From NCBI GenBank assembly GCA_041666915.1, contig JBAYFZ010000003.1, positions 22,394-86,393 on the forward strand: DNA of 64,000 bases, written 5' to 3'. The DNA is from Minisyncoccota bacterium (GTDB lineage: Bacteria; Patescibacteriota; Minisyncoccia; Phycocordibacterales; PALSA-1337). A program made the translations under genes and the position numbers. A model generated the notes under the pieces. That model saw only the letters and a list, made by a program, of their open reading frames with translations. It was not told where the DNA came from and searched no databases. Each line of letters starts with the position of its first letter. The stretch's first letter is position 1. Of this stretch, positions 1-50,234 are shown one piece after another.

Positions 1-1827
1 GAAGGTATGTGCTTTATAGATCCACACGGAAAGACTGCAGATTTGTTGCTGGAGTATGTTCCAAAGGAACGTATTCGTGATGTTATATATATTGCACCAT
101 TTGATACGGATTACCCTATTTCATTTAATGTTCTTGAAAGTGTAGATCCTCAAAAGAGACACTTGGTAGCCTCTGGTCTTATGAGTACTTTCAAAAAGAT
201 TTGGGAGGATGCTTGGTCTGCCAGAATGGAATATATTTTGACCAATACTCTTTTGGCCTTACTTGAAGCACCTGGTTCTACTTTACTCGGAGTAAACAGG
301 ATGTTGTCTGATAAAGAATATCGTAAAGAGATTGTTTCGCATGTTCAAGATCCGTCGGTCAAAACATTTTGGAATAAAGAGTTTGCTAGTTATACCGAAC
401 GTCAGGCTGCAGAAGCTGTACCAGCTATTCAAAATAAAGTTGGACAATTCACTGCCAATCCCTTGATCCGAAATATGATCGGTCAGGAACATTCTTCTTT
501 TGATTTCCGTGAAGCAATGGACAAAAAGAAAATCATCATCATCAACCTTTCAAAGGGAAGAATCGGTGATGAAAATATGAAACTCTTGGGCGGACTTCTT
601 GTAACCAAGATTTATCTTGCAGCTATGTCACGTGCTGATGTTCCAGATAGGACAGCAAAGATGTTGCCAAATTTCTATCTTTTTGTTGACGAATTTCAAA
701 ACTTCGCTAATGCTTCTTTTGCAGATATTCTCTCTGAAGCTAGAAAATATAAACTCAATCTAACTATTGCTCATCAGTATATAGAACAGATGGACGAGAT
801 AGTTCGTCCAGCCGTCTTTGGTAACGTCGGAACAATGATTGCTTTTCGTGTAGGCGCCACTGATGCTGAAGCTTTGGAAAAAGAATTCGCACCAATCTTT
901 GTTCTTGAAGATTTGGTCAATCTAGGTTTTGCTCAAATATATCTCAAATTGATGATTGATGGACTTTCTTCACAGCCGTTTTCTGCCACGACTTTACCAC
1001 CTATTGCTCATCCAGAAGTTTCTTATGTAAAAGAGATCATATCTGCTTCTCGTGAACAATTTGCTAGACCTAGAGCTGAAGTTGAGCAGATAGTTATGGC
1101 TTTTCATAATCCTGTTGCAAAGCCTCCAGTTACTAAGACTGTTCCAACGGTTAAAACCTCTATACCCAGTACGATTCCAAGTCCTGTAAATAAGGAGTCG
1201 GCTACGATTAAGGTGGTGCCAAATTCAAACCCTGTAAATAAAGAAGTGGTTCCTATTAAAGCTGTAGAAAATATTCCTAAACCGCCAACTATTAATACTG
1301 TAGTTAATTCAAACGTTTCAAAGTCGCCAGTTGTTAATTCGGCGGTTAATTCAAATGTCTCTCAATCTGTTGTGTCAGCCTCAAATCCAGAGCCGGCCGT
1401 TACTTCTTCAAAGTCCATAACTAATTCAAGTGCCCCTAAATCTGTAAGTGCTCCAATTCAACAAGTGTCAAAACCTCCACAATCAAAACCTTCTCCGTCA
1501 ATGCCTTCAATAAATTCGCATCATCCTTTGGAAGATCATACAAAGCCAGTCTCCTTGCATACATTAGCGGCAAGGCATGCTCCTAGAAATGATCCCAAGG
1601 TCCCAACACCAAAGAATGTTAATAGTCTGAAAGATGCTTTGTCAGCTGCTCTAGGTAAAACTAATATTGAAAAAAAGGATTCAGTTGTTCCGCAACAAAA
1701 ACCTGTGAATGTTGGAATTGTCAAACCTGTTCCTCCAACTAATATTTCACCAGCATCAATTCCTGCAAAAGAAGTGCCAAAAGAAGTTCCAGAAGATCTA
1801 TTAAAGAAGGTCTTGAAAGATGACTAA
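1..1827 (+). CDS. Type IV secretion coupling protein-like ATPase (TraG/TraD/VirD4 family), 5'-truncated by the window edge, with a roughly 270-aa disordered P/S/V/N-rich C-terminal tail
   Basis: The ORF runs from the window start. A hydrophobic beta-strand followed by acidic residues (IIIINLSKG...YLFVDEFQNF) looks like the Walker B region of TrwB/VirD4-like coupling ATPases. The C-terminal third is low-complexity (PVAKPPVTKTVPTVK... repeated VNSNVS). Confidence 0.55.
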   Translation, partial: EGMCFIDPHGKTADLLLEYVPKERIRDVIYIAPFDTDYPISFNVLESVDPQKRHLVASGLMSTFKKIWEDAWSARMEYILTNTLLALLEAPGSTLLGVNRMLSDKEYRKEIVSHVQDPSVKTFWNKEFASYTERQAAEAVPAIQNKVGQFTANPLIRNMIGQEHSSFDFREAMDKKKIIIINLSKGRIGDENMKLLGGLLVTKIYLAAMSRADVPDRTAKMLPNFYLFVDEFQNFANASFADILSEARKYKLNLTIAHQYIEQMDEIVRPAVFGNVGTMIAFRVGATDAEALEKEFAPIFVLEDLVNLGFAQIYLKLMIDGLSSQPFSATTLPPIAHPEVSYVKEIISASREQFARPRAEVEQIVMAFHNPVAKPPVTKTVPTVKTSIPSTIPSPVNKESATIKVVPNSNPVNKEVVPIKAVENIPKPPTINTVVNSNVSKSPVVNSAVNSNVSQSVVSASNPEPAVTSSKSITNSSAPKSVSAPIQQVSKPPQSKPSPSMPSINSHHPLEDHTKPVSLHTLAARHAPRNDPKVPTPKNVNSLKDALSAALGKTNIEKKDSVVPQQKPVNVGIVKPVPPTNISPASIPAKEVPKEVPEDLLKKVLKDD

Positions 1828-1847: not shown

Positions 1848-3053
1848 ATGAAGCCAAGGCGCATACTCATATTTTCTCTCGTATATTATCCTCGTCTTAT
1901 TGGTGGGGCAGAAGTTGCCATAAAAGAGATAACAGATAGGATTTCTCCGGAAGATGTGGAATTTGATATGGTAACTTTGCGCAAGCATTCACCAGCTTTT
2001 GAACGTATTGGTAATGTTAATATCTATCGAGTTGGTTCAAAGATATTTCCATTTTCAAAATATTTATTTATATTCCTGGCATATTTCAAAGCTTTAGAAT
2101 TACATAAGAAAAATAAATATGATGCCATCTGGTCCATCATGGCCAATTATGCTGGATTTTCTGCACTTTTCTTTAAAAAGAAAAATCCAAAAGTACCATT
2201 TATCTTAACTTTACAAGAAGGGGATTCATTTGATCATATTCGTAGAAGGGTTGGGATTTTCTATCCACTTTTCAAAATGATCTTTGAACGTGCCGACCAT
2301 ATCCAAACCATTTCAAAATATTTGGCAAATTGGGCAAAAGATATGGGCGCAAGATGTCCAGTGACCGTCGTACCAAACGCTGTTGATTATGAATTATTCT
2401 CAAAAGATATTTCTGTAGAAGAAGCTAGTCAATTAAAAAATAAACTTGGTAAAAAAGAGGATGATGTTTTTCTAATAACCACATCTAGGTTGGTGATAAA
2501 AAATGCCGTGAATGACATAATTCAAGCTCTGGAGTATCTTCCAGGTAATATAAAATTTTTGATTCTCGGCACTGGTTATGAAGAAAAAAATCTCAAGAAG
2601 CAAGTTGTTGATTTAAAATTAGAGTACCGCGTCAAATTTTTGGGATTTGTACCACATGCTGAAATGCCGAAGTATTTACATATAAGTGACGTCTTCATCA
2701 GACCATCTCTATCTGAAGGTTTTGGTAACTCTTTTATTGAAGCCATGGCTGTAGGCATTCCTGTTATAGCAACACCAGTTGGTGGTATTGTAGATTTTCT
2801 GAAAGATGGTGAAACGGGACTTTTGTGTGAAGTTAATAATCCAAGAAGTATTGCTCAGAAAGTTGATAAGATAATCAAAGATAGAGAATCAAGAGAATAT
2901 ATTGTGAGACAAGCGAAGGAGATGGTGAAGAAACATTACCAGTGGGACACTGTCGTAGAAAAGATGAAGGAGATTTTTCTATCAGTTTCTACAGTTGAAG
3001 TCTCTCGTCAAGAAATGAAAAATAAGCTTAATTCTGCTAGACTTAAATTATGA
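1848..3053 (+). CDS. Glycosyltransferase family 4 (GT-B fold, retaining)
   Basis: C-terminal EGFGNSFIEAMAVGIPVIATPVGGIVDFL matches the GT4/GT1 E-X7-E donor-binding motif. Length of 401 aa is typical. Confidence 0.8.
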   Translation: MKPRRILIFSLVYYPRLIGGAEVAIKEITDRISPEDVEFDMVTLRKHSPAFERIGNVNIYRVGSKIFPFSKYLFIFLAYFKALELHKKNKYDAIWSIMANYAGFSALFFKKKNPKVPFILTLQEGDSFDHIRRRVGIFYPLFKMIFERADHIQTISKYLANWAKDMGARCPVTVVPNAVDYELFSKDISVEEASQLKNKLGKKEDDVFLITTSRLVIKNAVNDIIQALEYLPGNIKFLILGTGYEEKNLKKQVVDLKLEYRVKFLGFVPHAEMPKYLHISDVFIRPSLSEGFGNSFIEAMAVGIPVIATPVGGIVDFLKDGETGLLCEVNNPRSIAQKVDKIIKDRESREYIVRQAKEMVKKHYQWDTVVEKMKEIFLSVSTVEVSRQEMKNKLNSARLKL

Positions 3054-4159
3054 AAATTTTAATAGCAACCGGAATATACCCACCTGATATTGGAGGGCCT
3101 GCTACATATTCACAATTGCTTCGAGAAAAATTACCGGAGAAGGGAATTCAAGTTAAAATTTTGACCTTTGGAGAAGTTCGTTATTTACCAAAAGTTATCA
3201 GACATCTAGTCTTTTTTTGTAAAGCAATGATTAGGGGTCGTGATGTAGATATAATCTTTGCACAAGATCCAGTTTCGGTCGGCTTTCCATCATGGTTGAC
3301 AACTTTCATCATGCGTAAAAAATTCTTTATACGTGTAGCTGGTGATTATGCTTGGGAACAAGCTGTACAAAGATATGGTATCAAAGATAATATTGATGAT
3401 TTTCAAAAAAAGAAATATGGTGCAAAGACAAGTTTTTTGCGAATGATCCAGAGGTTTGTCGTTGGTAGAGCGGATACAGTATTTACACCTAGTATCTATT
3501 TTAGGGATTTGGTAGCTGGATGGAATAAAAAGCAAAAAAGAGTTTTCCATATTTATAATGGAATTGATATGTTGCCGGTGACTCAAAGTAAAGAAGATGC
3601 ACGAAAAGTGCTTGCGATTCCTAGTGATACAAAAGTTTTAGTAACTATTGGAAGACTTGTACCATGGAAAGGCTTTTTCGGTCTGATAGATGTTGTCGGG
3701 GATTTGCAAAAGGTTTCTTCACAATATCGTCTGTATATTGTTGGTACTGGTCCAGATAAGGAATCTTTGAAGAAATATATCTCTGAAAGAGGTCTTGATG
3801 AAGTGGTTTTTCTCACTGGAGCAGTCCCTCGTGAGAAAGTCTTTTCATATTTGGTAGCTTCAGATGTGTTTGTGCTAAATACGTCATTTGAGAGTTTCTC
3901 ATTCCAAATAGTTGAGGCAATGCACGCTGGTACGCCAGTTATCTCTACGGATATAGGAAATATTTCTGAAATTGTTGAAAATGGTGAGGAGGGAATACTT
4001 GTTGCACCTGATGATAAAAAAGCTTTGAGTGATTCAATCTTGAAAATTGTTAATGATGAACAATTTAGATCGTCTATTATCATGCAGGCTAAAATTAAGT
4101 CAAAGATGTTTTCTATTGAAAATACCTTGAATAAGTTATACACTTTTCTCGTTGAATAA
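3050..4159 (+). CDS. Glycosyltransferase family 4
   Basis: FESFSFQIVEAMHAGTPVISTDIGNISEIVENGEEG is a GT4 signature. The start overlaps the upstream stop by 4 bp, which suggests an operon. Confidence 0.8.
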   Translation: MKILIATGIYPPDIGGPATYSQLLREKLPEKGIQVKILTFGEVRYLPKVIRHLVFFCKAMIRGRDVDIIFAQDPVSVGFPSWLTTFIMRKKFFIRVAGDYAWEQAVQRYGIKDNIDDFQKKKYGAKTSFLRMIQRFVVGRADTVFTPSIYFRDLVAGWNKKQKRVFHIYNGIDMLPVTQSKEDARKVLAIPSDTKVLVTIGRLVPWKGFFGLIDVVGDLQKVSSQYRLYIVGTGPDKESLKKYISERGLDEVVFLTGAVPREKVFSYLVASDVFVLNTSFESFSFQIVEAMHAGTPVISTDIGNISEIVENGEEGILVAPDDKKALSDSILKIVNDEQFRSSIIMQAKIKSKMFSIENTLNKLYTFLVE

Positions 4160-5249
4160 TACCGTGAATCAAAAACGATTATTAATGATTTCGACCGACA
4201 GATTAATCTTTGATGAGAAGAGCGAAGTTCGTGCGCGCCAGATTGAATACGCTAAGAATTGGGACGAAGTACACATTGTCGTCTTTAATCGATACCCCCG
4301 GGGGGTATCAGATGCGAATTTGAAAATCTCCCCTAACTGCTGGATCTATTCAACAGAATCATATTCAAAGTTTTTGTACCCATTTGACGCCATCAAGCTT
4401 GGTCGTCAGATTATTACTGAACATAAAATCAGTGAAATAACTTGCCAAGATTCTTCTCTGACAGCAATGGTCGGCGTATCTCTTAAAAAGAAGTTTAATA
4501 TTCCACTGGAGATTCAGATTCATACGGATATCGGTAGTCCATATTTTGCTCGTACTATTACCAATAAGATCCGACTTATGATGGCAAAAAAATATTTGCT
4601 GGAAGCGGATAAAATAAGGGTCGTTTCAGAGAGAATTAAAAAATATGTTGAGGTGATTCTTTCCAATAAAGATTGTTGCGGTGATTGTAGGTGCGAAACA
4701 GGTAATAGTTGTAAATGTTGCGGTGATAATTGCGCCTGCGATAAGACTTTAATAGAAGTCCGTCCGATAGTTGTAGATACGGAATTTATTAAAAATGCAC
4801 CGATTACTGTTGATTTGCATAAAAAATATCCACAATTTACAAAGATAGTCCTGATGGCTTCACGATTGGAAAAAGAAAAAAATATTGAATTGGCTATTAG
4901 GTCTTGGTCAGAAATTATTAAAATCAATCCAACAGTTGGTTTGATCATAGTCGGTAGTGGCTCCGAAGGATCTAAACTCAAAACATTAATCTCAAAGTTG
5001 GGATTAAATAAGAATATTTTTATGGAAAAATGGGTAGATAAAAATATTCTAGCTTCATATTACAAAACAGCTGATCTGTTTTTGGTCACTTCATTATTTG
5101 AAGGTTACGGTATGACTCTAGTTGAAGCCAATGCTGTCGGGTGTAAGATTGTCTCTACTGACGTAGGAATAGCAAAAGAAATGAATGCGACGATCGTAGG
5201 ATATAATACTAAGGAAGTTGCAGATGTGATTGTTTCCAAGATTAGGTAG
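4152..5249 (+). CDS. Glycosyltransferase family 4 carrying a metallothionein-like Cys-rich insertion
   Basis: EGYGMTLVEANAVGCKIVSTDVG is a GT4 motif. The insert NKDCCGDCRCETGNSCKCCGDNCACDK (12 Cys in about 27 aa) lies between the two Rossmann halves. Confidence 0.7.
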   Translation: MNNTVNQKRLLMISTDRLIFDEKSEVRARQIEYAKNWDEVHIVVFNRYPRGVSDANLKISPNCWIYSTESYSKFLYPFDAIKLGRQIITEHKISEITCQDSSLTAMVGVSLKKKFNIPLEIQIHTDIGSPYFARTITNKIRLMMAKKYLLEADKIRVVSERIKKYVEVILSNKDCCGDCRCETGNSCKCCGDNCACDKTLIEVRPIVVDTEFIKNAPITVDLHKKYPQFTKIVLMASRLEKEKNIELAIRSWSEIIKINPTVGLIIVGSGSEGSKLKTLISKLGLNKNIFMEKWVDKNILASYYKTADLFLVTSLFEGYGMTLVEANAVGCKIVSTDVGIAKEMNATIVGYNTKEVADVIVSKIR

Positions 5250-6288
5250 CAGACGAATTATGAGATTACTGATAATAACCCAAAAAGTAGATAGAGAGGA
5301 TCCAGTATTGGGTTTTTTTCATGGCTGGATAGAAGAATTTTCAAGACGCTTCAAAGCGGTCGTTGTTATTTGTTTATCAAAAGGTAAATATGAATTACCT
5401 GGAAATGTTGCTGTTTTATCACTTGGTAAGGAAAAGTGGCAAAGTAAGGCCAAGTATATTTTTTTATTGTTCTATTTTTCTTTGAGATATTCCAATCGTT
5501 ATGATGCTGTCTTTGTTCACATGAACGAAGAATATGTCGTCTTGGCTGGTTGGTTGTGGAGAATAATGGGAAAGAAGGTTTTCATGTGGCGCAATCATCC
5601 TCATGGAAATACCATGACAGACATAGCTTCAATCTTTTGTAATAAAGTTTTCTGTACATCAAAATATTCTTATACAGCAAAATACAAGAAAACGACGCTT
5701 ATGCCTGTAGGTATAGATATGAATAAATTCAAGGTTGATAATTCTAAACCTAAGATAAAAAATTCCATTCTATTTCTAGGAAGAATAGCAAAGATAAAGA
5801 ATGTTCATATTTTTGTTGAAGCTTTAGGTATGTTGAAAAAAAGCGGAATAATCTTTACGGCTGATATATATGGAGATGCTTTACCAAAAGATACTCAATA
5901 TTTTGAAGAGATAAAGTCAAAAGCAAAAGAGCTTGGTCTTAATAACATGCTTAAATTTATGAGTGGAGTACCGAACTATAAAACACCAGAAATTTATAAT
6001 AGTCATGAAATATTTGTTAACCTGACTCCTAGTGGCGCTTATGATAAGACTATATTTGAAGCAATGGCTTGTGGATGTTTGACTTTGACTACCAATGATA
6101 ATCTGAAAGAACAGGTTGATGGAAGGTTGAGTATAAAGAGTATTGAAGTATCAGAAGTTGTGAAGCAATTGGACGAAGTCTTGTCTTTAGAAGAAGAGAG
6201 TAAAAAGAAGATTATTTCCAATTGTGTTAAGTTTGCTGAAACACAGAGTTTGACGAGTCTCGCTTCCAAGATTGCAGAAACTATCTAA
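5230..6288 (+). CDS. Glycosyltransferase (GT-B, GT4-like)
   Basis: C-terminal ...VNLTPSGAYDKTIFEAMACGCLTLTTND resembles the GT4 EX7E region. It is translationally coupled to its neighbours. Confidence 0.6.
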   Translation: MFPRLGSRRIMRLLIITQKVDREDPVLGFFHGWIEEFSRRFKAVVVICLSKGKYELPGNVAVLSLGKEKWQSKAKYIFLLFYFSLRYSNRYDAVFVHMNEEYVVLAGWLWRIMGKKVFMWRNHPHGNTMTDIASIFCNKVFCTSKYSYTAKYKKTTLMPVGIDMNKFKVDNSKPKIKNSILFLGRIAKIKNVHIFVEALGMLKKSGIIFTADIYGDALPKDTQYFEEIKSKAKELGLNNMLKFMSGVPNYKTPEIYNSHEIFVNLTPSGAYDKTIFEAMACGCLTLTTNDNLKEQVDGRLSIKSIEVSEVVKQLDEVLSLEEESKKKIISNCVKFAETQSLTSLASKIAETI

Positions 6289-6307
6289 TTAACCTATTAT
6301 AATCCCC

Positions 6308-6925
6308 ATGAGTAAACTCATTCCAAGTTTTTGGTATCTCTTAAGAGAGAAGATGAAAGGACGAAATTTTATTTACGAGTTTTATTTCAAAGGTAAAAGA
6401 ACTATTGATGTTGGTTGTGGTGGCGGTCAATTTTTGGCATTTGATAAGAAATTGATACACGGTGTAGATCTGAACGAAGTTGTGGTCCAAAAACTGGCTA
6501 GCGATGGTTTTATGGTCAAAGTTGCTAGTGCCGATAAGATCCCGTATGAAGATGGGAAGTTTGAAATGGCTCATTGTCATAATGTTATAGAACATCTTAT
6601 CCCTAAGACCGCTCACGGAATGTTATGCGAATCTGCAAGAGTTCTGAAAAGGGGCGGTATGTTGGTACTTAGTTCCGAAGTTATAACCAGAAAATTTTGG
6701 GGAACTTTCGGTCACACCAGACCTTATCCTCCAAGTGCTGTTAAAAAATTGTTACGCGAAGATAGTAGGGAAGAATTTGAACCGATTTCCAGCCTTGAAT
6801 GGGTCGGAGTATTTTATTTAGGTGATTATTATTCCAACAGAGTTATGTATTTGATTTCCGCTTTTCTGGGTTATTACACACCACTTTTCAGACGGGAATA
6901 TTTTTTGGTTTTGAGAAAAAAATAA
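6308..6925 (+). CDS. Class I SAM-dependent methyltransferase (Methyltransf_11-like)
   Basis: Motif I IDVGCGGGQFL is present, with a downstream acidic residue and the motif II/III pattern (VLKRGGMLVLS). Confidence 0.7.
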   Translation: MSKLIPSFWYLLREKMKGRNFIYEFYFKGKRTIDVGCGGGQFLAFDKKLIHGVDLNEVVVQKLASDGFMVKVASADKIPYEDGKFEMAHCHNVIEHLIPKTAHGMLCESARVLKRGGMLVLSSEVITRKFWGTFGHTRPYPPSAVKKLLREDSREEFEPISSLEWVGVFYLGDYYSNRVMYLISAFLGYYTPLFRREYFLVLRKK

Positions 6926-6932
6926 GATATTT

Positions 6933-7379
6933 ATGGTTGATTGGACAATAAAAAAATATATAGAATTGAATGATAAATATCCAACGCATACGAAGTTGGT
7001 CCGCTTTTTGATTTCTGGTGGTACAGCTACTTTTGTAAATATTGCTTTGTTGTATGTTTTTACTGACGTATTTGATATATGGTATATAACATCTGCAATA
7101 ATGGCTTTCGTTATTGCTTTTGTTGTTAGTTTTACTCTTCAGAAGTTTTGGACATTCCAAGATATGTCAAAAGAGGGTATGCACCGTCAGGCTATTATAT
7201 ATTTTACGATGGCATCTTTTAACCTTTGTCTGAATGCTGGTTTATTGTATTTATGTGTTGAATATATTGGCCTTCATTATTTATCTGCTCAGATTTTGAT
7301 AAGCATTTTGATTGCAATTGAAAATTATTTCGTTTATCAGTTTTTGATTTTTAGAAGGACTATTTTGATAAAACCATGA
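6933..7379 (+). CDS. GtrA-family membrane protein (polyprenol-phosphate-sugar flippase-like)
   Basis: 148 aa with 4 predicted TM segments. The N-terminal segment LVRFLISGGTATFVNIALLYVFT is typical of GtrA (PF04138). Confidence 0.7.
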   Translation: MVDWTIKKYIELNDKYPTHTKLVRFLISGGTATFVNIALLYVFTDVFDIWYITSAIMAFVIAFVVSFTLQKFWTFQDMSKEGMHRQAIIYFTMASFNLCLNAGLLYLCVEYIGLHYLSAQILISILIAIENYFVYQFLIFRRTILIKP

Positions 7380-9082
7380 TTATTCCAGAATCAAGATTAT
7401 TTTCTTATTCAAAAGAATTGAGAGTTATTCTTATATTATTACTAACCTTTTTTGTGATAAGGATATCGGGTGTCTCCATATCTTATTATCAAGATGAATG
7501 GAAAAATGTATCCTCGGCTTCAAGTGTTGAATCGGCTGGAGCTTTCTTTGCTCATCCGCCTTTGATGCAAATGTGGTTTGTCGCTGGGTATGCGATATTT
7601 GGTGAAAATAATTTTAGACTATTTCCAATACTATTCTCTGCGATGACGCTTGTCCTTCTGTATATTGTTGTGAGGAAAAGATTTGATAATACAACAGCTT
7701 TATTGTCAGCATCTCTTTTTACGGTAGTTTTTTATAGCATCTGGGGTTCTCTAATGGTTGATGTTGATGGCCCAGTGATGCCTTTGCTGTTTTTGCTTGC
7801 AGTATATTGTTACGATGAGTCCAATCTTTCAGCGGATAATTCTAAGCGTAAATGGTTTATATTACTTCTTTTGTCATGTCTTGCTGGATTTTTGATAAAA
7901 CTTAGTTTCATTTTAGTTGTTGGAGTTTTCTTATTGGACTATGTCTGGACTAATTGGCGCAGTTTAACTTTGAAGAAATGGGTGGTCTTGGCTGGATCTC
8001 TGGGTGGTTTCGGTATAATTTATGTCGTTGCTCTTTATGTCATCCAAGCTATTTATCCTGCATTTAGTATTGATTTTATGCTTGGTCATGCCAATCAATT
8101 TGTTCCTGATATTGGAAGGGATTATACACAAATAGTTGTTCAAGGAGTAAAAGCGATTTATTATCTTTCTCCACTTTTGATTGTGCCATTACTATTTTTA
8201 TCAAAAGAGATTTTTAGAAAAACGCGCATATTTTTCATATATCTTTTGGTCGGTTTTCTATTCTATTTCGTCATCTTTGATTTCTCTAGGGGGGTGTTGG
8301 ATAAATATTTGATATTTGCGACGATACCTCTCGCTGTTATATCCGGAGCTATTTTTGCCAGTCTTTTCAAGAATTTTAAACCTTCTTTGAAGAGTCTGAA
8401 AATACCAATAATTATTTCGGTTGTTGTCGCAGTCATTCTCATTGCTATCAATTTCTTACCTCACGCTGTAATGCCTTTGTATCCAAAGACAGAGTGGTTC
8501 TCTAGAGTTTTGCATGGTCAATGGAATTTCCTTAACCCGTTCAATGGTGGTTCTGGTCCAATTGGCTTCTACGTTTCTTTCTTATTTATCGCAGTCTCGT
8601 TTATCTTTTCAGCAGTAGTGGGTTTGGTTGGTCTTATAAAGAAAGATTGGAGACAATCTTGTGCAATTATTCTTATTGCTATTGGTTTGGTTTATAACAT
8701 TGTTCTTGCAGAGGAACTGATGTTCGGAAAGATTAATGGAAATTCTACAAAATTACTCGCCACAGCGGTTTCTTTTATAACCAAAACTGATTCAATAAAG
8801 AAGGTAATGTCATACAACAGTATTGGTATTCGTGAGTTGTCTCCAACTGGGAAATGGTATATGAGGTTTTATGCCGCTCCACAATTTGAGAGTAATCATC
8901 GTAAAGTATTCGCTGACTTCAAAGGGCAATATTTGGTAGTAGATATTCCACATATAAGTGAGAGTATTTTCTATGGAAAGTTCTTGGCTAAATGTGATGT
9001 TATTTTTGAATCTAGATCAGGAAAGATAACCGCTAGAGTTTATGATTGTCTGGACAGTAAGAAGATTATTGATAGTATATAA
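7376..9082 (+). CDS. GT-C fold membrane glycosyltransferase (GT39/ArnT/PMT-like)
   Basis: 568 aa, polytopic with more than 10 TM segments. A DE motif sits in the first extracytoplasmic loop (SYYQDEW). The gene sits between GtrA and a GtrB-like GT2. Confidence 0.5.
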   Translation: MIIPESRLFSYSKELRVILILLLTFFVIRISGVSISYYQDEWKNVSSASSVESAGAFFAHPPLMQMWFVAGYAIFGENNFRLFPILFSAMTLVLLYIVVRKRFDNTTALLSASLFTVVFYSIWGSLMVDVDGPVMPLLFLLAVYCYDESNLSADNSKRKWFILLLLSCLAGFLIKLSFILVVGVFLLDYVWTNWRSLTLKKWVVLAGSLGGFGIIYVVALYVIQAIYPAFSIDFMLGHANQFVPDIGRDYTQIVVQGVKAIYYLSPLLIVPLLFLSKEIFRKTRIFFIYLLVGFLFYFVIFDFSRGVLDKYLIFATIPLAVISGAIFASLFKNFKPSLKSLKIPIIISVVVAVILIAINFLPHAVMPLYPKTEWFSRVLHGQWNFLNPFNGGSGPIGFYVSFLFIAVSFIFSAVVGLVGLIKKDWRQSCAIILIAIGLVYNIVLAEELMFGKINGNSTKLLATAVSFITKTDSIKKVMSYNSIGIRELSPTGKWYMRFYAAPQFESNHRKVFADFKGQYLVVDIPHISESIFYGKFLAKCDVIFESRSGKITARVYDCLDSKKIIDSI

Positions 9083-9087
9083 TCACT

Positions 9088-10341
9088 ATGAAGAAAGACT
9101 TTTGGAAAAGATACTATTACGATTATTTAGATTCCTTCGTTTCTTTTCTTGTACCTGTAAATGCAAAAGTTCTTCATCTAAATCAGAATGAATTTGATAC
9201 GGCAAATCTTTTCTCAAATTCTTCTAAGTATGATTATGTGGTCACTTCTGACACTCTGGGTAATATTCGTGATATAGAGTTGTTCCTAAGGGGAACCAAG
9301 AAAATGCTTACAGATGACGGAAGAGTTGTTATAACTCAATATAATGCCCTTTGGGAGCCTATTTTGAGGCTTGCTTCTGCTTTGGGGTTGAGAAAAGCCG
9401 TTATAGAACAGAACTGGCTTTCAATGTTAGATCTAAAAAACTTTGCTTATTTGGCTGGTTTTGAAGTTATAAAATCTGGTACAAAATTGATTTTACCTGT
9501 TTATATTCCGATCCTATCATTCGTTTGTAATAAATTTTTGATGAATATTTGGCCATTTTCTCATCTTGGTCTTTTTCATTATATTGTTGCAAGAAAGTCC
9601 GGATTAAAGACAGGTGATAAACCATCTATATCTATTGTTGTCCCTGCTAGGAATGAAGCTGGAACAATAGAAAAAATAGCTAGAGAATTGCCAGAATTAG
9701 GTTCGTTCACAGAAATAATTTTTATTGAGGGTAATTCAACCGATAACACTTATTCTGAAATACAAAGAGTTGTAAAGATTTTTGGTAAGACAAAGAAAAT
9801 CAAGTTTGCAAAACAAAGTGGAAAAGGAAAAGGTGATGCTGTCAGAAAAGGTTTTGATATGGCAACTGGTGATATTCTCGCTATATATGATGCTGATATG
9901 ACAGTTCCAGCTGATGAAGTCGTCAAATTCTATGAAGCTATCGTCAGTAATAAAGGGGATTTTATTAATGGGTCTCGTTTGGTCTATCCTATGCAAAAGG
10001 AATCAATGCGAGTTTTGAATTTCTTTGGAAATAAGTTTTTCAGTTTGGCTTTTAGTTGGATTTTGGGACAACCACTCAAAGATACACTTTGTGGTACAAA
10101 AGTCTTGTGGCGTAGTGATTATGAAAAAATCAAACAAGGCAGAACTTTCTTCGGTGATTTTGATCCTTTTGGTGATTTTGATCTCCTGTTTGGTGCAGCA
10201 AAATTAAATTTGAAAATTATTGATATGCCAGTTCATTATGGAGAACGTGTCTATGGCACGACCAACATAAGTCGTTGGAAACATGGATGGTTACTCTTGA
10301 AGATGACAGTTTTCGCTTCAAAAAAGATGAAATTTTTGTAG
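9088..10341 (+). CDS. GT2 glycosyltransferase (polyprenol-phosphate sugar synthase / GtrB-like) with an N-terminal methyltransferase-like domain
   Basis: C-terminal half: SIVVPARNEAGTIEKI ... IYDADMTVPADEV (the GT-A DXD motif). Confidence 0.65.
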   Translation: MKKDFWKRYYYDYLDSFVSFLVPVNAKVLHLNQNEFDTANLFSNSSKYDYVVTSDTLGNIRDIELFLRGTKKMLTDDGRVVITQYNALWEPILRLASALGLRKAVIEQNWLSMLDLKNFAYLAGFEVIKSGTKLILPVYIPILSFVCNKFLMNIWPFSHLGLFHYIVARKSGLKTGDKPSISIVVPARNEAGTIEKIARELPELGSFTEIIFIEGNSTDNTYSEIQRVVKIFGKTKKIKFAKQSGKGKGDAVRKGFDMATGDILAIYDADMTVPADEVVKFYEAIVSNKGDFINGSRLVYPMQKESMRVLNFFGNKFFSLAFSWILGQPLKDTLCGTKVLWRSDYEKIKQGRTFFGDFDPFGDFDLLFGAAKLNLKIIDMPVHYGERVYGTTNISRWKHGWLLLKMTVFASKKMKFL

Positions 10342-10349
10342 TACCCGTG

Positions 10350-11258
10350 TTATTTTTTGACAGCAAAAATATTTTTGAATGATTCACCTTTGGGGAAAGT
10401 CTGAATAAATTCTTCTATATTTGTTATTGGTTGAATATCTTTTTTATTTTCATCTATTAGAGAAAGCGAAAAGCCAAGTCCCGCTAGGTTTTCAAGATAT
10501 CTTTGAGCATTGCCACCTAGTCTGGCCATGGCTTTTGGATAGACTTCAGTGAAGATTATCAAGTTAGGGCTTTTTTGTATTGTTTCTCGCATACCTTCTA
10601 GTGCCAAGAATTCAGCTCCTTCTATGTCTATTTTTATAATATCTATCTTTGGCGAACCAAATTGTTTGAGAGAATTATCTAAAGTATCCAATTCTATTGT
10701 TAATCCTGGTTTATCTTTGTCATAGACTAGAGAATGATGACCTTTATTATTTGGATCTAGATACAATGTATTTGAACCTTTTTTGTCGGACAAACCAATT
10801 TTTTGTGCTTTTACATTTGTAAGTCTATTGACCTCAATATTTTTTTGAAGAAAAGAGTAGTTTCTATTTTCTGGTTCGTAGGCGAATATTTTGCCGTTTG
10901 ATCCAATGTGTCCGCTAGCTATTATGGTGTAGTATCCGATATTTGCACCGATATCAACTACGGTAAAACCATTTTTCAGTGATTTTCGGAATAGCTCTAT
11001 CTCGGTATCTTCAAAACTTCCTAGAGCAAGTGTTCCTGACACTGCCACATCAGTTTGATCCAGTATGATAGTACCTTCTTGGATATTTATCTGTGGGGGG
11101 ATCTTGGATAAGATGATCTTATTTAGAATTGTTTTTAGAATTGGTACAAGTGATGCTGTACGGTAGATTTTTGCTGGTATAGAGGGTGGTAATAGACCAA
11201 TGATCTTTGTTAAAACCGAAGCGTGTCTATCGGATTTGAGAGCTTGTTGTTTCGGCAT
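10350..11258 (-). CDS. FkbM-family methyltransferase
   Basis: VVDIGANIGYYTIIAS, ending ...FAVKK. This is the Methyltransf_21 pattern. Confidence 0.75.
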   Translation of the reverse strand: MPKQQALKSDRHASVLTKIIGLLPPSIPAKIYRTASLVPILKTILNKIILSKIPPQINIQEGTIILDQTDVAVSGTLALGSFEDTEIELFRKSLKNGFTVVDIGANIGYYTIIASGHIGSNGKIFAYEPENRNYSFLQKNIEVNRLTNVKAQKIGLSDKKGSNTLYLDPNNKGHHSLVYDKDKPGLTIELDTLDNSLKQFGSPKIDIIKIDIEGAEFLALEGMRETIQKSPNLIIFTEVYPKAMARLGGNAQRYLENLAGLGFSLSLIDENKKDIQPITNIEEFIQTFPKGESFKNIFAVKK

Positions 11259-11260
11259 AA

Positions 11261-13480
11261 ATGATTATAATTACACGGTTAAAGATTTATATGAAAGCCT
11301 ATAGAGATATTATCATCATACCGACCTATAACGAGAAAGACAACATAGGCAAAATAATTGAAAAAGTTAGTGGGCTTTATCCTGAGCTGGAAATATGGGT
11401 AGTTGACGATAGTTCACCTGATGGAACAGCAAAGATTGTCTCTACAATCATGAAATCCAATCCAAAGGTGAGTTTGATTGTCCGTAAAGCAAAGACTGGT
11501 CTAGGCGATGCTTATAAAGATACTTTGATCAAAATCCAAAAAATGGGTGATGTTAGGAGTGTAATAACGATGGATGCTGATGGTTCTCATAATCCTTTGA
11601 AGATAAGAGAACTTCTAGATTCGCTTCAAAAAGTTGATTTGAGTATTGGTTCTAGATATACGAGCGGCGGTGGTGGAATGAAGGGTATGGGCATGTATAG
11701 GAATTTTTTGAGTATGGGTGGCAATCTATATGCTAGGATTATTATTGGTTTTGGTATCAATGATTCTACTGCTGGTTTTGTAGCCTTCAGGAGAACTGCT
11801 TTGGACGGTATCAATATTCCTGCTATTGCTAGTGCTGGTTATTCTTATCAAATAGAATTCAAGAATACTTTACTTGAAGCTGGAAGAAGTTGGAATGAAA
11901 TTCCTATTACTTTTGTTGATCGTATAGTAGGTACATCAAAAATGTCTGGAAGGATTATCAAAGAGGGAATTTTGACCCCTTGGAGAATAGCGGCTCGTAA
12001 AACATTCAAATGGTCACATTTCAAAGAGGTTTTGAAAAAAGCTTTACTGATTTCTACTGTGCTCTGTGCTTTTATGTTTGCTCTTTTCCATTTAAAAGAG
12101 AGTCCACCTGTCTGGTATGACGAAGGCTTGTATATTCAGGATGCTGTAAACCTTGTCCAAGATGGAATCGTAGGAGTTAGGTTTTCTCCAGATATTATCC
12201 GTCATGTTTCGGAGTTTAGTGTTGGTTTTCCATTGACTTATTCTTTGGCCGGATTTTTCAATATTTTTGGAATAGATATTTTCACAGCACGTTTGCTTAT
12301 GATTTTGTTTATTTTAGGTCTTATCATTTCTAGTTATTTTCTCATAAAGAAACTATATGGCAGAAATATAGCGATAATTTCTACAATTTTATTGTCTACA
12401 TTTCCACCTTTATATGGTAATGGTAAAAGTGTATTAGGTGAGACACCAGGATTGTTGTTTTTAGTCTTAGCTTTATTGTTTGTTTATTTAGCTAGAACAA
12501 AATTTGGATCAAGGAATAAATATATCGTGTTTGCTGGTTTATTTGTTGGTTTGGCTGTAGCTACAAAACCATTCTTTCTTATATTGATTCCAGCGCTTAT
12601 TGTTGGTTTGTTTTCCAGTAGAAAAATTATGCAGATTAAGATGTCTGATCTATATCTAGGTTCAATAGCTACGTTGATACCGATAATTATTTGGCTGACA
12701 ACCCAGTTCCAATCAGGAGATTCATTCTTGAAGATTTTTTCTTTCTACGCCAACCCCTATCAAGTTTCTAGTATTATTAGCATAGTCTTTAATAGTATTA
12801 AAAGTCTATTTACCAGTGTAGGCCCGCTATATCTTATGGTGGTATTGTTTGTCTGGTTGGTATCTTTGATAATTAAGTTTAAGAGACGTTCAGAAATTTC
12901 TCCAGAGGAAATAACAGCCTTCACTTTTTCTGTTCTCTGTGTTTTGGCTTATTTGAGAATATCAGGAATCTTTAGATACCTTTATCCAGCTCAAGTGATT
13001 TCTTTGATTTTCTTTCCATCAGCTTTAGCTTACATACTAAATACATTTTCAACTTCATGGTTTGATAATACGAAAAAGAAATTTGTAACGCTTGGTTTGG
13101 CTATTGTATTTATACCACTGACATTTCTCGGTATATATCAAGTTCTCTTCAATTCTTGGGTTGCTGAAGCTTATGGATCAAATAAGACTGCTGATTGGCA
13201 AAATTACTTTGAGAAGTTACCCTCAAAAGAATCCGTTTTCTTTTACGATACTCCTGAAGTTGCGATCTTTATGAATGGTAGTAATTATTATCAATATATA
13301 GAACCAGCGCCAAGTATGAAGATTGGTACTGAAGAATTGGATGTTATACGTCAAGGTATAACCGATAAAGTAGTTATTACTACAGGTAGATTGAGCGGAC
13401 TTGATCAGAGCCTGTTTGTAAAATATAGTTTAGACAAAACCTTTTACAAATATTCTATTTTGAAAAAGATTAAGAAATAG
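11261..13480 (+). CDS. Fusion: GT2 polyprenol-phosphate-sugar synthase (DPM1-like) + C-terminal polytopic GT-C-like membrane domain
   Basis: N-terminus: IIIPTYNEKDNIGKII, VVDDSSPDGT, DADGSHNP. After about residue 250 there are 10 or more TM helices, with a PMT/ArnT-like DE motif (PPVWYDEGLYIQDA) after the first TM. Confidence 0.65.
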   Translation: MIIITRLKIYMKAYRDIIIIPTYNEKDNIGKIIEKVSGLYPELEIWVVDDSSPDGTAKIVSTIMKSNPKVSLIVRKAKTGLGDAYKDTLIKIQKMGDVRSVITMDADGSHNPLKIRELLDSLQKVDLSIGSRYTSGGGGMKGMGMYRNFLSMGGNLYARIIIGFGINDSTAGFVAFRRTALDGINIPAIASAGYSYQIEFKNTLLEAGRSWNEIPITFVDRIVGTSKMSGRIIKEGILTPWRIAARKTFKWSHFKEVLKKALLISTVLCAFMFALFHLKESPPVWYDEGLYIQDAVNLVQDGIVGVRFSPDIIRHVSEFSVGFPLTYSLAGFFNIFGIDIFTARLLMILFILGLIISSYFLIKKLYGRNIAIISTILLSTFPPLYGNGKSVLGETPGLLFLVLALLFVYLARTKFGSRNKYIVFAGLFVGLAVATKPFFLILIPALIVGLFSSRKIMQIKMSDLYLGSIATLIPIIIWLTTQFQSGDSFLKIFSFYANPYQVSSIISIVFNSIKSLFTSVGPLYLMVVLFVWLVSLIIKFKRRSEISPEEITAFTFSVLCVLAYLRISGIFRYLYPAQVISLIFFPSALAYILNTFSTSWFDNTKKKFVTLGLAIVFIPLTFLGIYQVLFNSWVAEAYGSNKTADWQNYFEKLPSKESVFFYDTPEVAIFMNGSNYYQYIEPAPSMKIGTEELDVIRQGITDKVVITTGRLSGLDQSLFVKYSLDKTFYKYSILKKIKK

Positions 13481-49311: not shown

Positions 49312-49362
49312 AAGGAAGAGGTAAGAGTTAAGAGGTAGGAGGTAAGAGTTAAGAAAGAAGCA

Positions 49363-50178
49363 ATGAACAAAAATTTCATTAAAAACTTAAGGAAAAATTC
49401 TTGTGATGTCGGATATCACAGCAAGTTTACCGTCTTAATCGTTACTGCCTTTTTTGTAGTTTCAATCTTTGGTCTATTGAATGTTGTCAACGCAGAGGTT
49501 ATGTCTAGCACAAATTACAAACTTGAAAATGACAGTATCAATTTTGGTGGAGGACGTGCCACTTCTACTTCTTATGTCATTGAAGATACTGCCGGAGAAA
49601 TTGCAACAGGTATGTCGTCTAGTACCAATTACATTATGAAAGCTGGTTATCAACAGACTCAAGATATCTACACAGTTTCAGTCACGCAATCTTCAAATGT
49701 AACAATGTCTCCTTCATTCGGAGGTGTTACCGGAGGTACAGCCAATGGACAGACATCCTTTACTGTAACTACCGACAATCCTGCTGGTTATTCAGCGACG
49801 ATCGCAGCAACTATGTCTCCAGCACTTAGGACATCGGCAGATAGTTTTACGGATTATGTTCCAGCTGGTGCGGTCCCTGATTTTACTTTTACGAACGCTT
49901 CAACAAATTCTTCTTTTGCCTTTACTCCAGAGAGTACTGATTTGGATGTTGATTATGAAGATTCTGGTGGAGTTTGTGGGGTTGCAGGAAGTGATACTGC
50001 AGATGCTTGTTGGAATGGTTTATCAACGACAGGAAAGACGATACTAAATAGAACTTCATCAAACAATCCATCTGGTACAGCGTCAACGATAAAGTTTAGA
50101 GCGGAATCAGGGAGTAATCATATACAAGTAGACGGAGTTTATATGGCAACGACAACGATTACGGTAGTGGCATTGTGA
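49363..50178 (+). CDS. Secreted beta-rich protein, paralog of 47580-48257
   Basis: Signal peptide TVLIVTAFFVVSIFGLLNVVNA. VTMSPSFGGVTGGTANGQTSFTVTTDNPAGYSATIAATMS. C-terminal ...TIKFRAESGSNHIQVDGVYMATTTITVVAL. Confidence 0.45.
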   Translation: MNKNFIKNLRKNSCDVGYHSKFTVLIVTAFFVVSIFGLLNVVNAEVMSSTNYKLENDSINFGGGRATSTSYVIEDTAGEIATGMSSSTNYIMKAGYQQTQDIYTVSVTQSSNVTMSPSFGGVTGGTANGQTSFTVTTDNPAGYSATIAATMSPALRTSADSFTDYVPAGAVPDFTFTNASTNSSFAFTPESTDLDVDYEDSGGVCGVAGSDTADACWNGLSTTGKTILNRTSSNNPSGTASTIKFRAESGSNHIQVDGVYMATTTITVVAL

Positions 50179-50234
50179 GGGTAAGGGATTAGAGGATAGA
50201 GAATTAGGGATTAGAAAAAGGGGGCAAAGAAGCA

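What the first reader, a model, noticed from the sequence alone, without database searches (positions are those of the whole stretch)
4665..4750. Metallothionein-like Cys cluster (12 Cys in about 27 aa) inserted in the inter-domain region of a GT4 glycosyltransferase
The segment NKDCCGDCRCETGNSCKCCGDNCACDK is coded by repeated tgt/tgc codons. It sits between the N- and C-terminal Rossmann halves of an otherwise ordinary GT4 enzyme. Such a dense CC/CxC cluster implies metal (Zn/Cu/Fe-S) binding or redox sensing, which is not a known feature of GT4 enzymes.
Basis: seen in the sequence. Interest (0 to 1): 0.5.

Follow-up and report, generated by a model that had tools for sequence, protein, structure and literature searches.

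The report
One-off cysteine-rich loop in a glycosyltransferase
A sugar-transferring enzyme of an uncultured Paceibacteria (CPR) bacterium carries a real 9-cysteine, metallothionein-like stretch in a naturally variable surface loop, but no relative has it, so it is a curiosity, not a new class of enzyme.

Summary
The segment NKDCCGDCRCETGNSCKCCGDNCACDK is real. It lies at nt 4665-4745, aa 172-198 of the intact ORF 4152-5249 (+). It holds 9 Cys, not 12; 12 is the count for the whole protein. Nine Cys in 22 residues against a local 0.8% Cys background is not chance (p about 6e-14).

The host protein is an ordinary GT4/GT-B glycosyltransferase with all family-invariant residues. AlphaFold2 gives pLDDT 93.7, and the best structural matches are MshA, sucrose-phosphate synthase and BshA.

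The insert is not in the inter-domain linker. It sits in the loop between the last helix and the last strand of the N-terminal domain. That loop varies in length among close relatives.

None of 146 family members (67% identity or less) has a Cys cluster there. No metallothionein family matches beyond composition.

The DNA points to a local origin. A 12-nt unit, TGTTGCGGTGAT, occurs twice in the insert. A near-copy lies out of frame 28 nt upstream, and its single mismatch turns TGA into TGC.

My best reading is a lineage-specific, locally generated insertion that probably binds Zn or Cu as a thiolate cluster. Any benefit to the cell is unproven. Interest is modest.

The parts
4152..5249 (+). 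GT4 (GT-B fold) glycosyltransferase gene, 365 aa from a TTG start. Other gene callers start at GTG 4164 (361 aa) or ATG 4185 (354 aa).
   Evidence: ORF. (Pfam PF00534 94.5 bits, cutoff 26.4; PF13692; weak PF13439 in the N-half). (three start calls). (AF2 pLDDT 93.7; Foldseek matches to MshA, SPS, BshA).
4665..4745 (+). Cys-rich insert NKDCCGDCRCETGNSCKCCGDNCACDK (aa 172-198). The nine Cys span nt 4674-4739.
   Evidence: Absent from all 146 homologues examined. Predicted coil with pLDDT about 58-61.
4674..4685 (+). First copy of the exact 12-nt repeat TGTTGCGGTGAT, encoding CCGD. It begins the unit CCGD-CRC-E.
   Evidence: An internal exact 12-mer repeat occurs in only 90 of 20000 random 86-nt segments of the window.
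4716..4727 (+). Second copy of TGTTGCGGTGAT (CCGD), 42 nt (14 codons) downstream. It begins the unit CCGDN-CAC-D.
4646..4657 (+). Upstream near-copy TGTTGAGGTGAT, lying in another frame within the conserved helix (read there as Y-V-E-V-I). In the insert's frame it would read TGT TGA GGT GAT. The single mismatch is TGA (stop) versus TGC (Cys).
   Evidence: and direct reading.
4705..4716 (+). ATAGTTGTAAAT inside the insert (read as N-S-C-K). It matches a downstream flank sequence at 11 of 12 positions.
4767..4778 (+). Downstream near-copy ATAGTTGTAGAT, read in the gene's frame as I-V-V-D and out of frame relative to the copy in the insert.
   Evidence: Two or more such flank matches occur in 10 of 1500 random segments.
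4629..4664 (+). Last alpha-helix of the N-terminal domain (ERIKKYVEVILS), conserved as RIKxYVEKLL or RIKxYLv in homologues. It forms the N-terminal boundary of the variable loop.
   Evidence: helix 156-167 in P0001 numbering; profile alignment to SPS 6kih.
4749..4769 (+). Conserved LIEVRPI: the last beta-strand of the N-terminal domain, which leads into the inter-domain crossover. It forms the C-terminal boundary of the variable loop.
   Evidence: strand 196-199 in P0001 numbering.
5100..5126 (+). EGYGMTLVE, the EX7E motif of retaining GT4 enzymes. It is intact.
   Evidence: E313, G314, Y315 and G316 invariant; E321 nearly invariant, P0001 numbering. Sequence.

Best explanation
The segment is a lineage-specific insertion, about 24 residues longer than the family's short loop. 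It lies in a surface loop that is already length-variable in the closest relatives. The loop connects the last helix and the last strand of the N-terminal Rossmann-like domain of a cytoplasmic GT4 glycosyltransferase from a Paceibacteria (Patescibacteria/CPR) bacterium.

Shown: the insert is real, in frame and unique to this protein. The enzyme around it keeps every family-invariant residue and is confidently predicted to fold as GT-B.

Inferred from DNA: the insert arose locally, not by capture of a metallothionein gene. A 12-nt unit from the adjacent helix-coding sequence appears to have been copied out of frame. In that frame GTT-GAG-GTG-AT becomes TGT-TGx-GGT-GAT, that is C-C-G-D. The TGA this would create is TGC in both insert copies. 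The unit was then duplicated again with a 42-nt period, giving two CCGD(x)CxC(D/E) units.

Inferred from chemistry: in the reducing cytoplasm, nine thiolates arranged as CC, CxC and CxxC, with only small and polar residues between them, would chelate soft metal ions. One possibility is a Zn3Cys9-type cluster, as in the 9-Cys beta-domain of vertebrate metallothionein. Another is a Cu(I) cluster. The spacing CxC-x5-CxC-x3/4-CxC resembles fungal Cu-metallothionein. Either would fold an otherwise floppy loop into a compact knob.

Inferred from Rossmann-fold topology: a helix-to-strand loop lies on the face opposite the substrate cleft. The knob is therefore unlikely to take part in catalysis. Any role would be structural, a contact surface, or incidental metal buffering.
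For: - Reality and frame.
- Non-chance Cys density.
- Ordinary GT4 host: Pfam; all invariant columns are present, including R234/K239 and EX7E; pLDDT 93.7, pTM 0.89; MshA, SPS, BshA, TarM and others.
- Position: one search shows most homologues have ...YLvxxLgIdxSKIxVRPI, while the nearest subfamily has 13-25 unrelated polar residues there. One search places the insert between helix 156-167 and strand 196-199. One search gives the equivalent short loop in SPS 6kih.
- Uniqueness. Of 146 members, only this protein exceeds 3 Cys per 25 aa, and the other long loops are 0.6% Cys. In one search, a 61-aa insert-plus-flanks query against 1.84 billion representatives gave only one spurious hit.
- Local origin. 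Empirical frequencies are 10 of 1500 for two flank matches and 90 of 20000 for an internal exact 12-mer repeat.
- Metallothionein-like chemistry: composition C9 D4 N3 K3 G3 with no aromatics. The best pattern match is to N. crassa Cu-MT, z = 2.7.
- Precedent for a structural Cys-metal insertion about 20 A from the cleft of a GT-B-like enzyme: TibC (PMC4358343).
Against: - No metal binding was or could be tested.
- AF2 gives the insert low confidence (about 58-61) and no defined structure. I had no access to coordinates to inspect Cys geometry.
- There is no conservation, so there is no evidence of purifying selection on the Cys. The closest relative is only 63-67% identical, so it is unknown whether sister species keep the insert.
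- The N. crassa similarity (p about 0.016) does not survive correction for five comparisons. Similarity to human, plant and cyanobacterial metallothioneins is at composition level only.
- The flank matches are short (12-14 nt) and their significance is modest (about 0.007).
- Local duplication accounts directly for only 4 of the 9 Cys.
Confidence: 0.5

Rival explanations
1. Neutral passenger. The loop tolerates any insertion. Slippage or duplication happened to create Cys codons, and the segment is disordered, has no selected function, and binds metal only adventitiously or not at all.
For: The loop is hypervariable in length and sequence in the nearest subfamily. The insert is a singleton among 146 members. 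AF2 predicts low-confidence coil. The DNA shows signs of local duplication.
Against: Nine Cys in 22 residues, in a proteome that uses 0.8% Cys, is hard to reach by drift. Duplication explains 4 Cys, so 5 more Cys codons are needed. Free clustered thiols are reactive and would be expected to be selected against unless metal-bound. The TGA-to-TGC change shows at least selection to keep the frame open.
Confidence: 0.3
2. Redox switch. The clustered Cys form reversible disulfides, or release Zn, under oxidative stress. That would change loop conformation and so enzyme activity or partner binding.
For: Vicinal CC and CxxC motifs are redox-active in other proteins. Zn-thiolate clusters release Zn on oxidation (general knowledge of metallothioneins and Hsp33).
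Against: By Rossmann-fold topology the loop lies on the face away from the catalytic cleft. No homologue has it, so no regulatory circuit is conserved. Nothing in the neighbourhood is redox-related; the neighbours are GT4s, methyltransferases, GtrA and PMT_2.
Confidence: 0.08
3. An iron site. This could be a rubredoxin- or TibC-like Fe(Cys)4 finger formed by the two knuckles C176-G-D-C179 and C190-G-D-N-C194, or a small Fe-S cluster.
For: Two CxxC/Cx3C knuckles lie 10 residues apart. TibC shows that a GT-B-like enzyme can carry an Fe(Cys)4 insertion with a structural role.
Against: There is no ferredoxin-type CxxCxxCxxxC motif. The five extra Cys and the CC and CxC motifs are typical of metallothionein-type clusters, not of Fe sites. 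Pfam gave no hit, and AF2 predicted no beta-hairpin knuckles.
Confidence: 0.05
4. Assembly or sequencing artefact, or a decaying pseudogene.
For: It is a singleton sequence from metagenome assemblies. The fetched copies are identical and may derive from the same data.
Against: It is in frame, and both flanks are conserved and correctly spaced. Three different assemblers or records give the same protein. All 20 family-invariant residues are retained. The fold prediction is confident on both sides.
Confidence: 0.02

Closest known systems
Retaining GT4 glycosyltransferases of the GT-B fold (MshA 3c4q, sucrose-phosphate synthase 6kih, BshA 5d00/6n1x, PimA 2gej)
   Same: The host protein has the two-Rossmann GT-B fold, the Glycos_transf_1 domain, the EX7E motif and the R/K phosphate-binding pair. 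It lies in a cluster with other GT4, GT2, GtrA and PMT_2 genes.
   Different: These enzymes have a short helix-to-strand turn where this protein has the 9-Cys insert. No specific NCBIfam equivalog is reached, so donor and acceptor are unknown.
Metallothioneins, especially the 9-Cys Zn3/Cu6 beta-domain of vertebrate MT, fungal Cu-MT (N. crassa) and the CC-containing N-domain of plant type-2 MT
   Same: About 33% Cys. CC, CxC and CxxC motifs. No aromatic residues. Gly, Asp, Asn, Lys and Ser as spacers. Nine Cys, as in the M3S9 beta-domain. The spacing CxC-x5-CxC-x3/4-CxC is close to N. crassa Cu-MT. CCGDNCAC resembles plant CCGGNCGC (reference sequences validated by Pfam).
   Different: It is not a free small protein but an internal loop of a 40-kDa enzyme. 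It hits no metallothionein Pfam family. Alignment scores are no better than shuffled controls, except a marginal z = 2.7. It appears to have been generated locally and is not homologous to any metallothionein. Metal binding is untested.
TibC/BAHT heptosyltransferases with a Cys4 'iron-finger' insertion (eLife 2014, PMC4358343)
   Same: [quoted passage not shown] Its role is structural (oligomerisation and substrate contact), not catalytic.
   Different: It belongs to a different GT family. The insertion is in the C-lobe. Four Cys bind one Fe in a finger that is conserved across the family and shown experimentally to be essential. Here there are nine Cys, the insert is in the N-domain, and it is a singleton with no experiment.
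Enzyme-metallothionein fusions (Trx-Mt 'TrxA' of Runella aurantiaca, PMC13578184)
   Same: A Cys-rich metal-binding segment is covalently joined to an enzyme domain in a bacterium. AF2 confidence is low in the Cys-rich part.
   Different: That case is a C-terminal fusion of a bona fide SmtA-family metallothionein (98% identical to Synechococcus SmtA) through a 56-residue linker. This case is an internal, non-homologous insert.

Membership tests
GT4 glycosyltransferase (CAZy GT4 / Pfam Glycos_transf_1) | Pfam PF00534 match above the gathering score | tested here: met
   94.5 bits against a cutoff of 26.4, aa 230-347.
GT4 glycosyltransferase (CAZy GT4 / Pfam Glycos_transf_1) | GT-B fold: two Rossmann-like domains with a cleft | tested here: met
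   AF2 pLDDT 93.7 and pTM 0.89. Foldseek E values of 1e-16 to 1e-18 to MshA, SPS and BshA, with TM up to 0.73.
GT4 glycosyltransferase (CAZy GT4 / Pfam Glycos_transf_1) | EX7E motif and the conserved Arg/Lys pair of the C-domain | tested here: met
   EGYGMTLVE at nt 5100-5126. R234, K239 and E313 are invariant columns of alignment A1.
GT4 glycosyltransferase (CAZy GT4 / Pfam Glycos_transf_1) | Retaining glycosyl transfer from a nucleotide sugar | not testable with these tools
   Needs an enzyme assay. No NCBIfam equivalog is reached.
Metallothionein | High Cys content with CC/CxC/CxxC motifs and no aromatic residues | tested here: met
   9 of 27 residues are Cys. Composition is C9 D4 N3 K3 G3 R E T S A.
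Metallothionein | Sequence membership in a recognised metallothionein family (PF00131, PF01439, PF02069 and others) | tested here: not met
   No Pfam hit at E up to 10. No PDB sequence hit better than E = 0.76. Smith-Waterman z scores of -0.3 to 1.1 against human, plant, SmtA and MymT, and 2.7 against N. crassa.
Metallothionein | Small free-standing protein | tested here: not met
   It is an internal loop of a 354-365-aa enzyme.
Metallothionein | Forms metal-thiolate clusters | not testable with these tools
   Needs metal analysis and spectroscopy.
Zinc ribbon / rubredoxin-like Cys4 finger (including the TibC iron finger) | Two CxxC-type knuckles on beta-hairpins ligating one metal | tested here: inconclusive
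   C176-x2-C179 and C190-x3-C194 are present. AF2 predicts coil at pLDDT about 60 and no hairpins. No Pfam hit.
Ferredoxin-type Fe-S cluster site | CxxCxxCxxxC(P) or an equivalent conserved motif | tested here: not met
   The motif is absent from the sequence. No Pfam hit.
Conserved functional domain of this GT4 family | Present in orthologues or close homologues | tested here: not met
   Present in 0 of 146 other family members, all 67% identical or less.

The most novel reading that the evidence does not exclude
A metal-thiolate (Zn3Cys9- or Cu(I)-cluster) mini-domain was born de novo inside an enzyme, by out-of-frame duplication of the neighbouring coding sequence. It is now functional in this ultra-small CPR bacterium. 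It could act as a built-in metal buffer in an organism with no dedicated metallothionein, or as a metal- or redox-dependent contact surface that controls assembly or activity of the envelope-glycan glycosyltransferase. That would be a caught-in-the-act example of how metallothionein-like modules originate.
Probability: 0.15. Interest if true: 0.6.

Novelty: new variant of a known kind. Interest (0 to 1): 0.3.

Why it matters
If the loop binds metal, it would be the first GT4 enzyme I could find with a metallothionein-type cluster. It would also be a clean natural example of a metal-binding module created from frame-shifted copies of adjacent coding DNA, which bears on how Cys-rich metal sites and metallothioneins arise repeatedly. 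If it is a neutral passenger, it mainly shows how tolerant this GT-B surface loop is. That is useful for engineering tags or metal sites into GT4 enzymes. Either way it rests on one sequence, with no sister taxa and no experiment, so its present weight is small.

Tried and rejected
1.. A 53-aa query (insert plus flanks) to the word-indexed protein search returned 'no candidate'. The identical P0001 should have matched, so this is a failed control and is uninformative.
2.. I scanned genome contigs and metagenome contigs with a Cys-only degenerate DNA pattern at the insert's exact spacing. I had underestimated (TGC/TGT)n microsatellites. After filtering, nothing relevant remained.
3.. An exhaustive HMMER search of 1.84 billion representatives with the 61-aa insert plus flanks gave one spurious repeat protein (E = 9.7e-4). 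The library holds only one representative per 50%-identity cluster, so a homologue carrying the insert could be hidden inside a cluster.
4.. Pfam and PDB sequence searches with the insert alone found nothing.
5.. A profile search of the long-loop subfamily added 26 new members, none with Cys.
6.. A literature look-up of the sample and protein accessions found nothing, so the environment (for example metal-rich or not) is unknown.
7. I considered a DGR variable region, an intein remnant, and a gene or RNA on the opposite strand. I rejected them because no long template repeat exists in the window, the other frames have stops, and there are no Rfam hits.
8. Cys-Cys distances in the model could not be measured, because model coordinates are not exposed.

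Full report
**1. Observation**

The window encodes one uninterrupted ORF at 4152-5249 on the + strand (365 aa from TTG). Other gene callers start it at GTG 4164 or ATG 4185. The peptide NKDCCGDCRCETGNSCKCCGDNCACDK is aa 172-198, nt 4665-4745. The other five frames of this stretch contain stops.

The segment has 9 Cys (4 TGT, 5 TGC), and 12 is the number in the whole protein. Long ORFs of the window use 0.80% Cys, so 9 in 22 residues has a binomial probability of about 6e-14. No other ORF of 150 aa or more in the window exceeds 4 Cys per 25 aa. The codons are interspersed with Gly, Asp, Asn, Lys and Arg codons, so this is not a trinucleotide microsatellite.

The identical protein is on record from an ENA 112-kb contig, a Logan 5-kb contig, and an NCBI/JGI 99-kb MAG contig named 'Candidatus Paceibacterota bacterium'. 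The two DNA copies I fetched are 100% identical to the window over 7.1 and 4.2 kb. The frame is therefore intact in every assembly, but there is no independent variation to learn from.

**2. The host protein**

Pfam gives Glycos_transf_1 (94.5 bits), Glyco_trans_1_4, and a weak Glyco_transf_4 match in the N-half. NCBIfam gives only generic sub-threshold GT4 hits.

A 118-sequence alignment shows that the protein keeps all 20 invariant columns, including R234, K239 and the EX7E motif EGYGMTLVE. AlphaFold2 with that alignment gives pLDDT 93.7 and pTM 0.89. Foldseek against the PDB returns retaining GT-B enzymes such as MshA, sucrose-phosphate synthase, BshA, OtsA and PimA.

The gene sits in a run of envelope-glycan genes: three more GT4-like genes, a methyltransferase, GtrA, a PMT_2 membrane glycosyltransferase and GT2 fusions. 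It is an ordinary, apparently functional cytoplasmic GT4.

**3. Where the insert is**

Most homologues read ...RIKxYLvxxLgIdxSKIxVRPI.... This is the last helix of the N-terminal domain, a 7-residue turn, and the last N-domain strand, which then crosses to the C-domain. The nearest subfamily reads ...RIKxYVEKLL[13-25 unrelated polar residues]IEVRPI....

In the model the insert is coil at pLDDT about 58-61, between helix 156-167 and strand 196-199 in P0001 numbering. The first strand of the C-domain comes about 30 residues later. The profile alignment to SPS 6kih shows the equivalent short turn.

So it is an insertion, but in a hypervariable helix-to-strand loop of the N-domain and not in the inter-domain linker. 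In Rossmann-type folds, helix-to-strand loops lie on the face opposite the ligand-binding edge. From this I infer that the insert is distant from the catalytic cleft. I could not measure the distance because coordinates are not exposed.

**4. Conservation**

Two searches of the 5.8-billion-protein collection gave 146 distinct family members, all Patescibacteria-type and 67% identical or less. One search used the protein and one used a profile of the long-loop subfamily.

None of these has more than 3 Cys in any 25-aa window. None has a Cys cluster in this loop. The other long loops are 0.6% Cys, and this loop is the longest: 53 residues between fixed alignment columns, against 29 typically and 45 for the next longest. 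One homologue (P0010) has GCSGC there.

An exhaustive HMMER search of 1.84 billion cluster representatives with insert plus flanks gave only a spurious hit. Pfam and PDB sequence searches with the insert found nothing.

The feature is therefore a singleton.

There are three caveats:
- No relative closer than about 65% identity exists in the databases.
- My two DNA-pattern scans were swamped by (TGC)n repeats and are uninformative.
- One protein search failed its own positive control.

**5. Origin**

- The 12-mer TGTTGCGGTGAT (CCGD) occurs twice in the insert, exactly 42 nt apart. This gives two units, CCGD-CRC-E and CCGDN-CAC-D. Only 0.45% of random 86-nt segments of the window contain such an internal repeat.
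- A near-copy, TGTTGAGGTGAT, lies 28 nt upstream in a different frame. It falls inside the conserved helix codons TAT-GTT-GAG-GTG-ATT; homologues also have TAT GTT GAG there.
- Read in the insert's frame, that upstream copy is TGT-TGA-GGT-GAT. Its only difference from the insert copies is TGA (stop) versus TGC (Cys).
- A second insert 12-mer, ATAGTTGTAAAT (NSCK), matches ATAGTTGTAGAT (IVVD) at 11 of 12 positions, 62 nt downstream and again out of frame.
- Two or more such flank matches occur in 10 of 1500 random segments.

I infer that the insert was built by local slippage or template-switch duplications of flanking sequence read out of frame. Val-rich GTT-Gxx codons become TGT/TGC Cys codons in that frame. 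This was followed by repair of the stop and a further 42-nt duplication. The statistics are suggestive (p about 0.005-0.007 each), not conclusive. The model directly explains only four of the nine Cys.

**6. Likely working**

The segment is 33% Cys, with CC, CxC, CxxC and Cx3C motifs. It has no aromatic or large hydrophobic residue, and its spacers are Gly, Asp, Asn, Lys and Ser. That is the compositional signature of metallothioneins.

Nine Cys matches the number in the M(II)3Cys9 beta-domain of vertebrate metallothionein (general knowledge). The spacing CxC-x5-CxC-x3/4-CxC is close to N. crassa Cu-MT.

They align to the insert no better than to shuffled versions of it (z of -0.3 to 1.1). N. 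crassa Cu-MT is marginally better (z = 2.7, 16 of 1000 shuffles), which is not significant after five tests. The resemblance is therefore convergent and not homology.

In a reducing cytoplasm, such a thiolate cluster would most plausibly bind Zn(II) or Cu(I) and condense the loop into a compact knob. Reaching nine Cys in a proteome with 0.8% Cys argues for some selection for Cys, and hence for metal ligation. I give about 0.5-0.6 to metal binding in vivo, and much less to any specific physiological role.

A verified precedent exists for a structural Cys-metal insertion far from the cleft of a GT-B-like enzyme. It is the Fe(Cys)4 'iron finger' of TibC, which is needed for oligomer assembly (PMC4358343). 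Metal-binding Cys insertions are therefore not unknown in this fold class. I found none reported for GT4.

**7. Rivals**

- Neutral passenger in an insertion-tolerant loop (0.3).
- Redox switch (0.08).
- Fe(Cys)4 or Fe-S site (0.05).
- Artefact or pseudogene (0.02).

Evidence for and against each is in the Rival explanations section.

**8. Verdict**

The insertion is confirmed but mislocated. The metal-binding interpretation is chemically reasonable and untested. The lack of any conservation makes it a one-off.

Novelty: a new variant of a known kind, namely a GT4 enzyme with a metallothionein-like loop that is not homologous to known metallothioneins.

Interest: 0.3. The most novel reading still open is a de novo-born, functional metal-cluster module (probability about 0.15, interest 0.6 if true).

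Noticed in passing
window 50235-64000 (+), runs off the window end: A giant open reading frame of more than 4588 aa, with no stop before the window ends. It has an N-terminal hydrophobic signal-like segment and FN3-like sequence. It contains many internal repeat families, including six tandem 198-nt units at 54528-55817 and about 25 copies of a 'GNVGIGTTSP...KLSV' module. It is probably a huge surface protein. The ORF listing does not list it because it runs off the end.
   Followed up: partly
window 49354-49398 and 50226-50270: A 45-nt stretch covering the ribosome-binding region and the first codons (MNKNFIKNL...) is 91% identical between ORF 49363-50178 and the giant ORF. The two therefore share paralogous start and signal regions.
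   Followed up: no
window 7-1827 (+): A TraG/VirD4/TrwB-type coupling-protein homologue. About 250 residues at its C-terminus form a low-complexity Ser/Pro/Val/Asn-rich tail. It lies directly upstream of the glycosyltransferase cluster.
   Followed up: partly
window 1848-13480: A dense envelope-glycosylation cluster. It holds four consecutive GT4-type genes (1848, 3050, 4152, 5230), a class I methyltransferase (6308), GtrA (6933), a PMT_2 membrane glycosyltransferase (7376), an AglJ-like GT2 with an N-terminal extension (9088) and a GT2 fused to a large membrane domain (11261).
   Followed up: partly
whole window 1-64000: There are no tRNA genes and no Rfam family at gathering threshold in 64 kb. 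GC content is 37%.
   Followed up: yes
homologue P0010 (Logan contig, 357 aa), same loop: This is the only other family member with paired Cys in this loop (…FLGCSGCDTSRLGDVTHPEIEVRPI). A subclade shares the sequence 'GDVTHPEIEVRPI', whose GD may correspond to the second CCGD of the insert.
   Followed up: partly
literature: PMC13578184 (Runella aurantiaca 'TrxA' Trx-metallothionein chimera): The paper reports the Trx part as 96% identical to Citrobacter Trx and the metallothionein part as 98% identical to Synechococcus SmtA, in a Bacteroidota genome. That pattern would also fit an expression-vector fusion contaminating an assembly. I did not check this.
   Followed up: no
tool behaviour: The word-indexed protein search returned 'no candidate shares three 5-residue words' for a 53-aa query that is an exact substring of P0001, a protein in that database. 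Short or Cys-rich queries seem not to work there.
   Followed up: no
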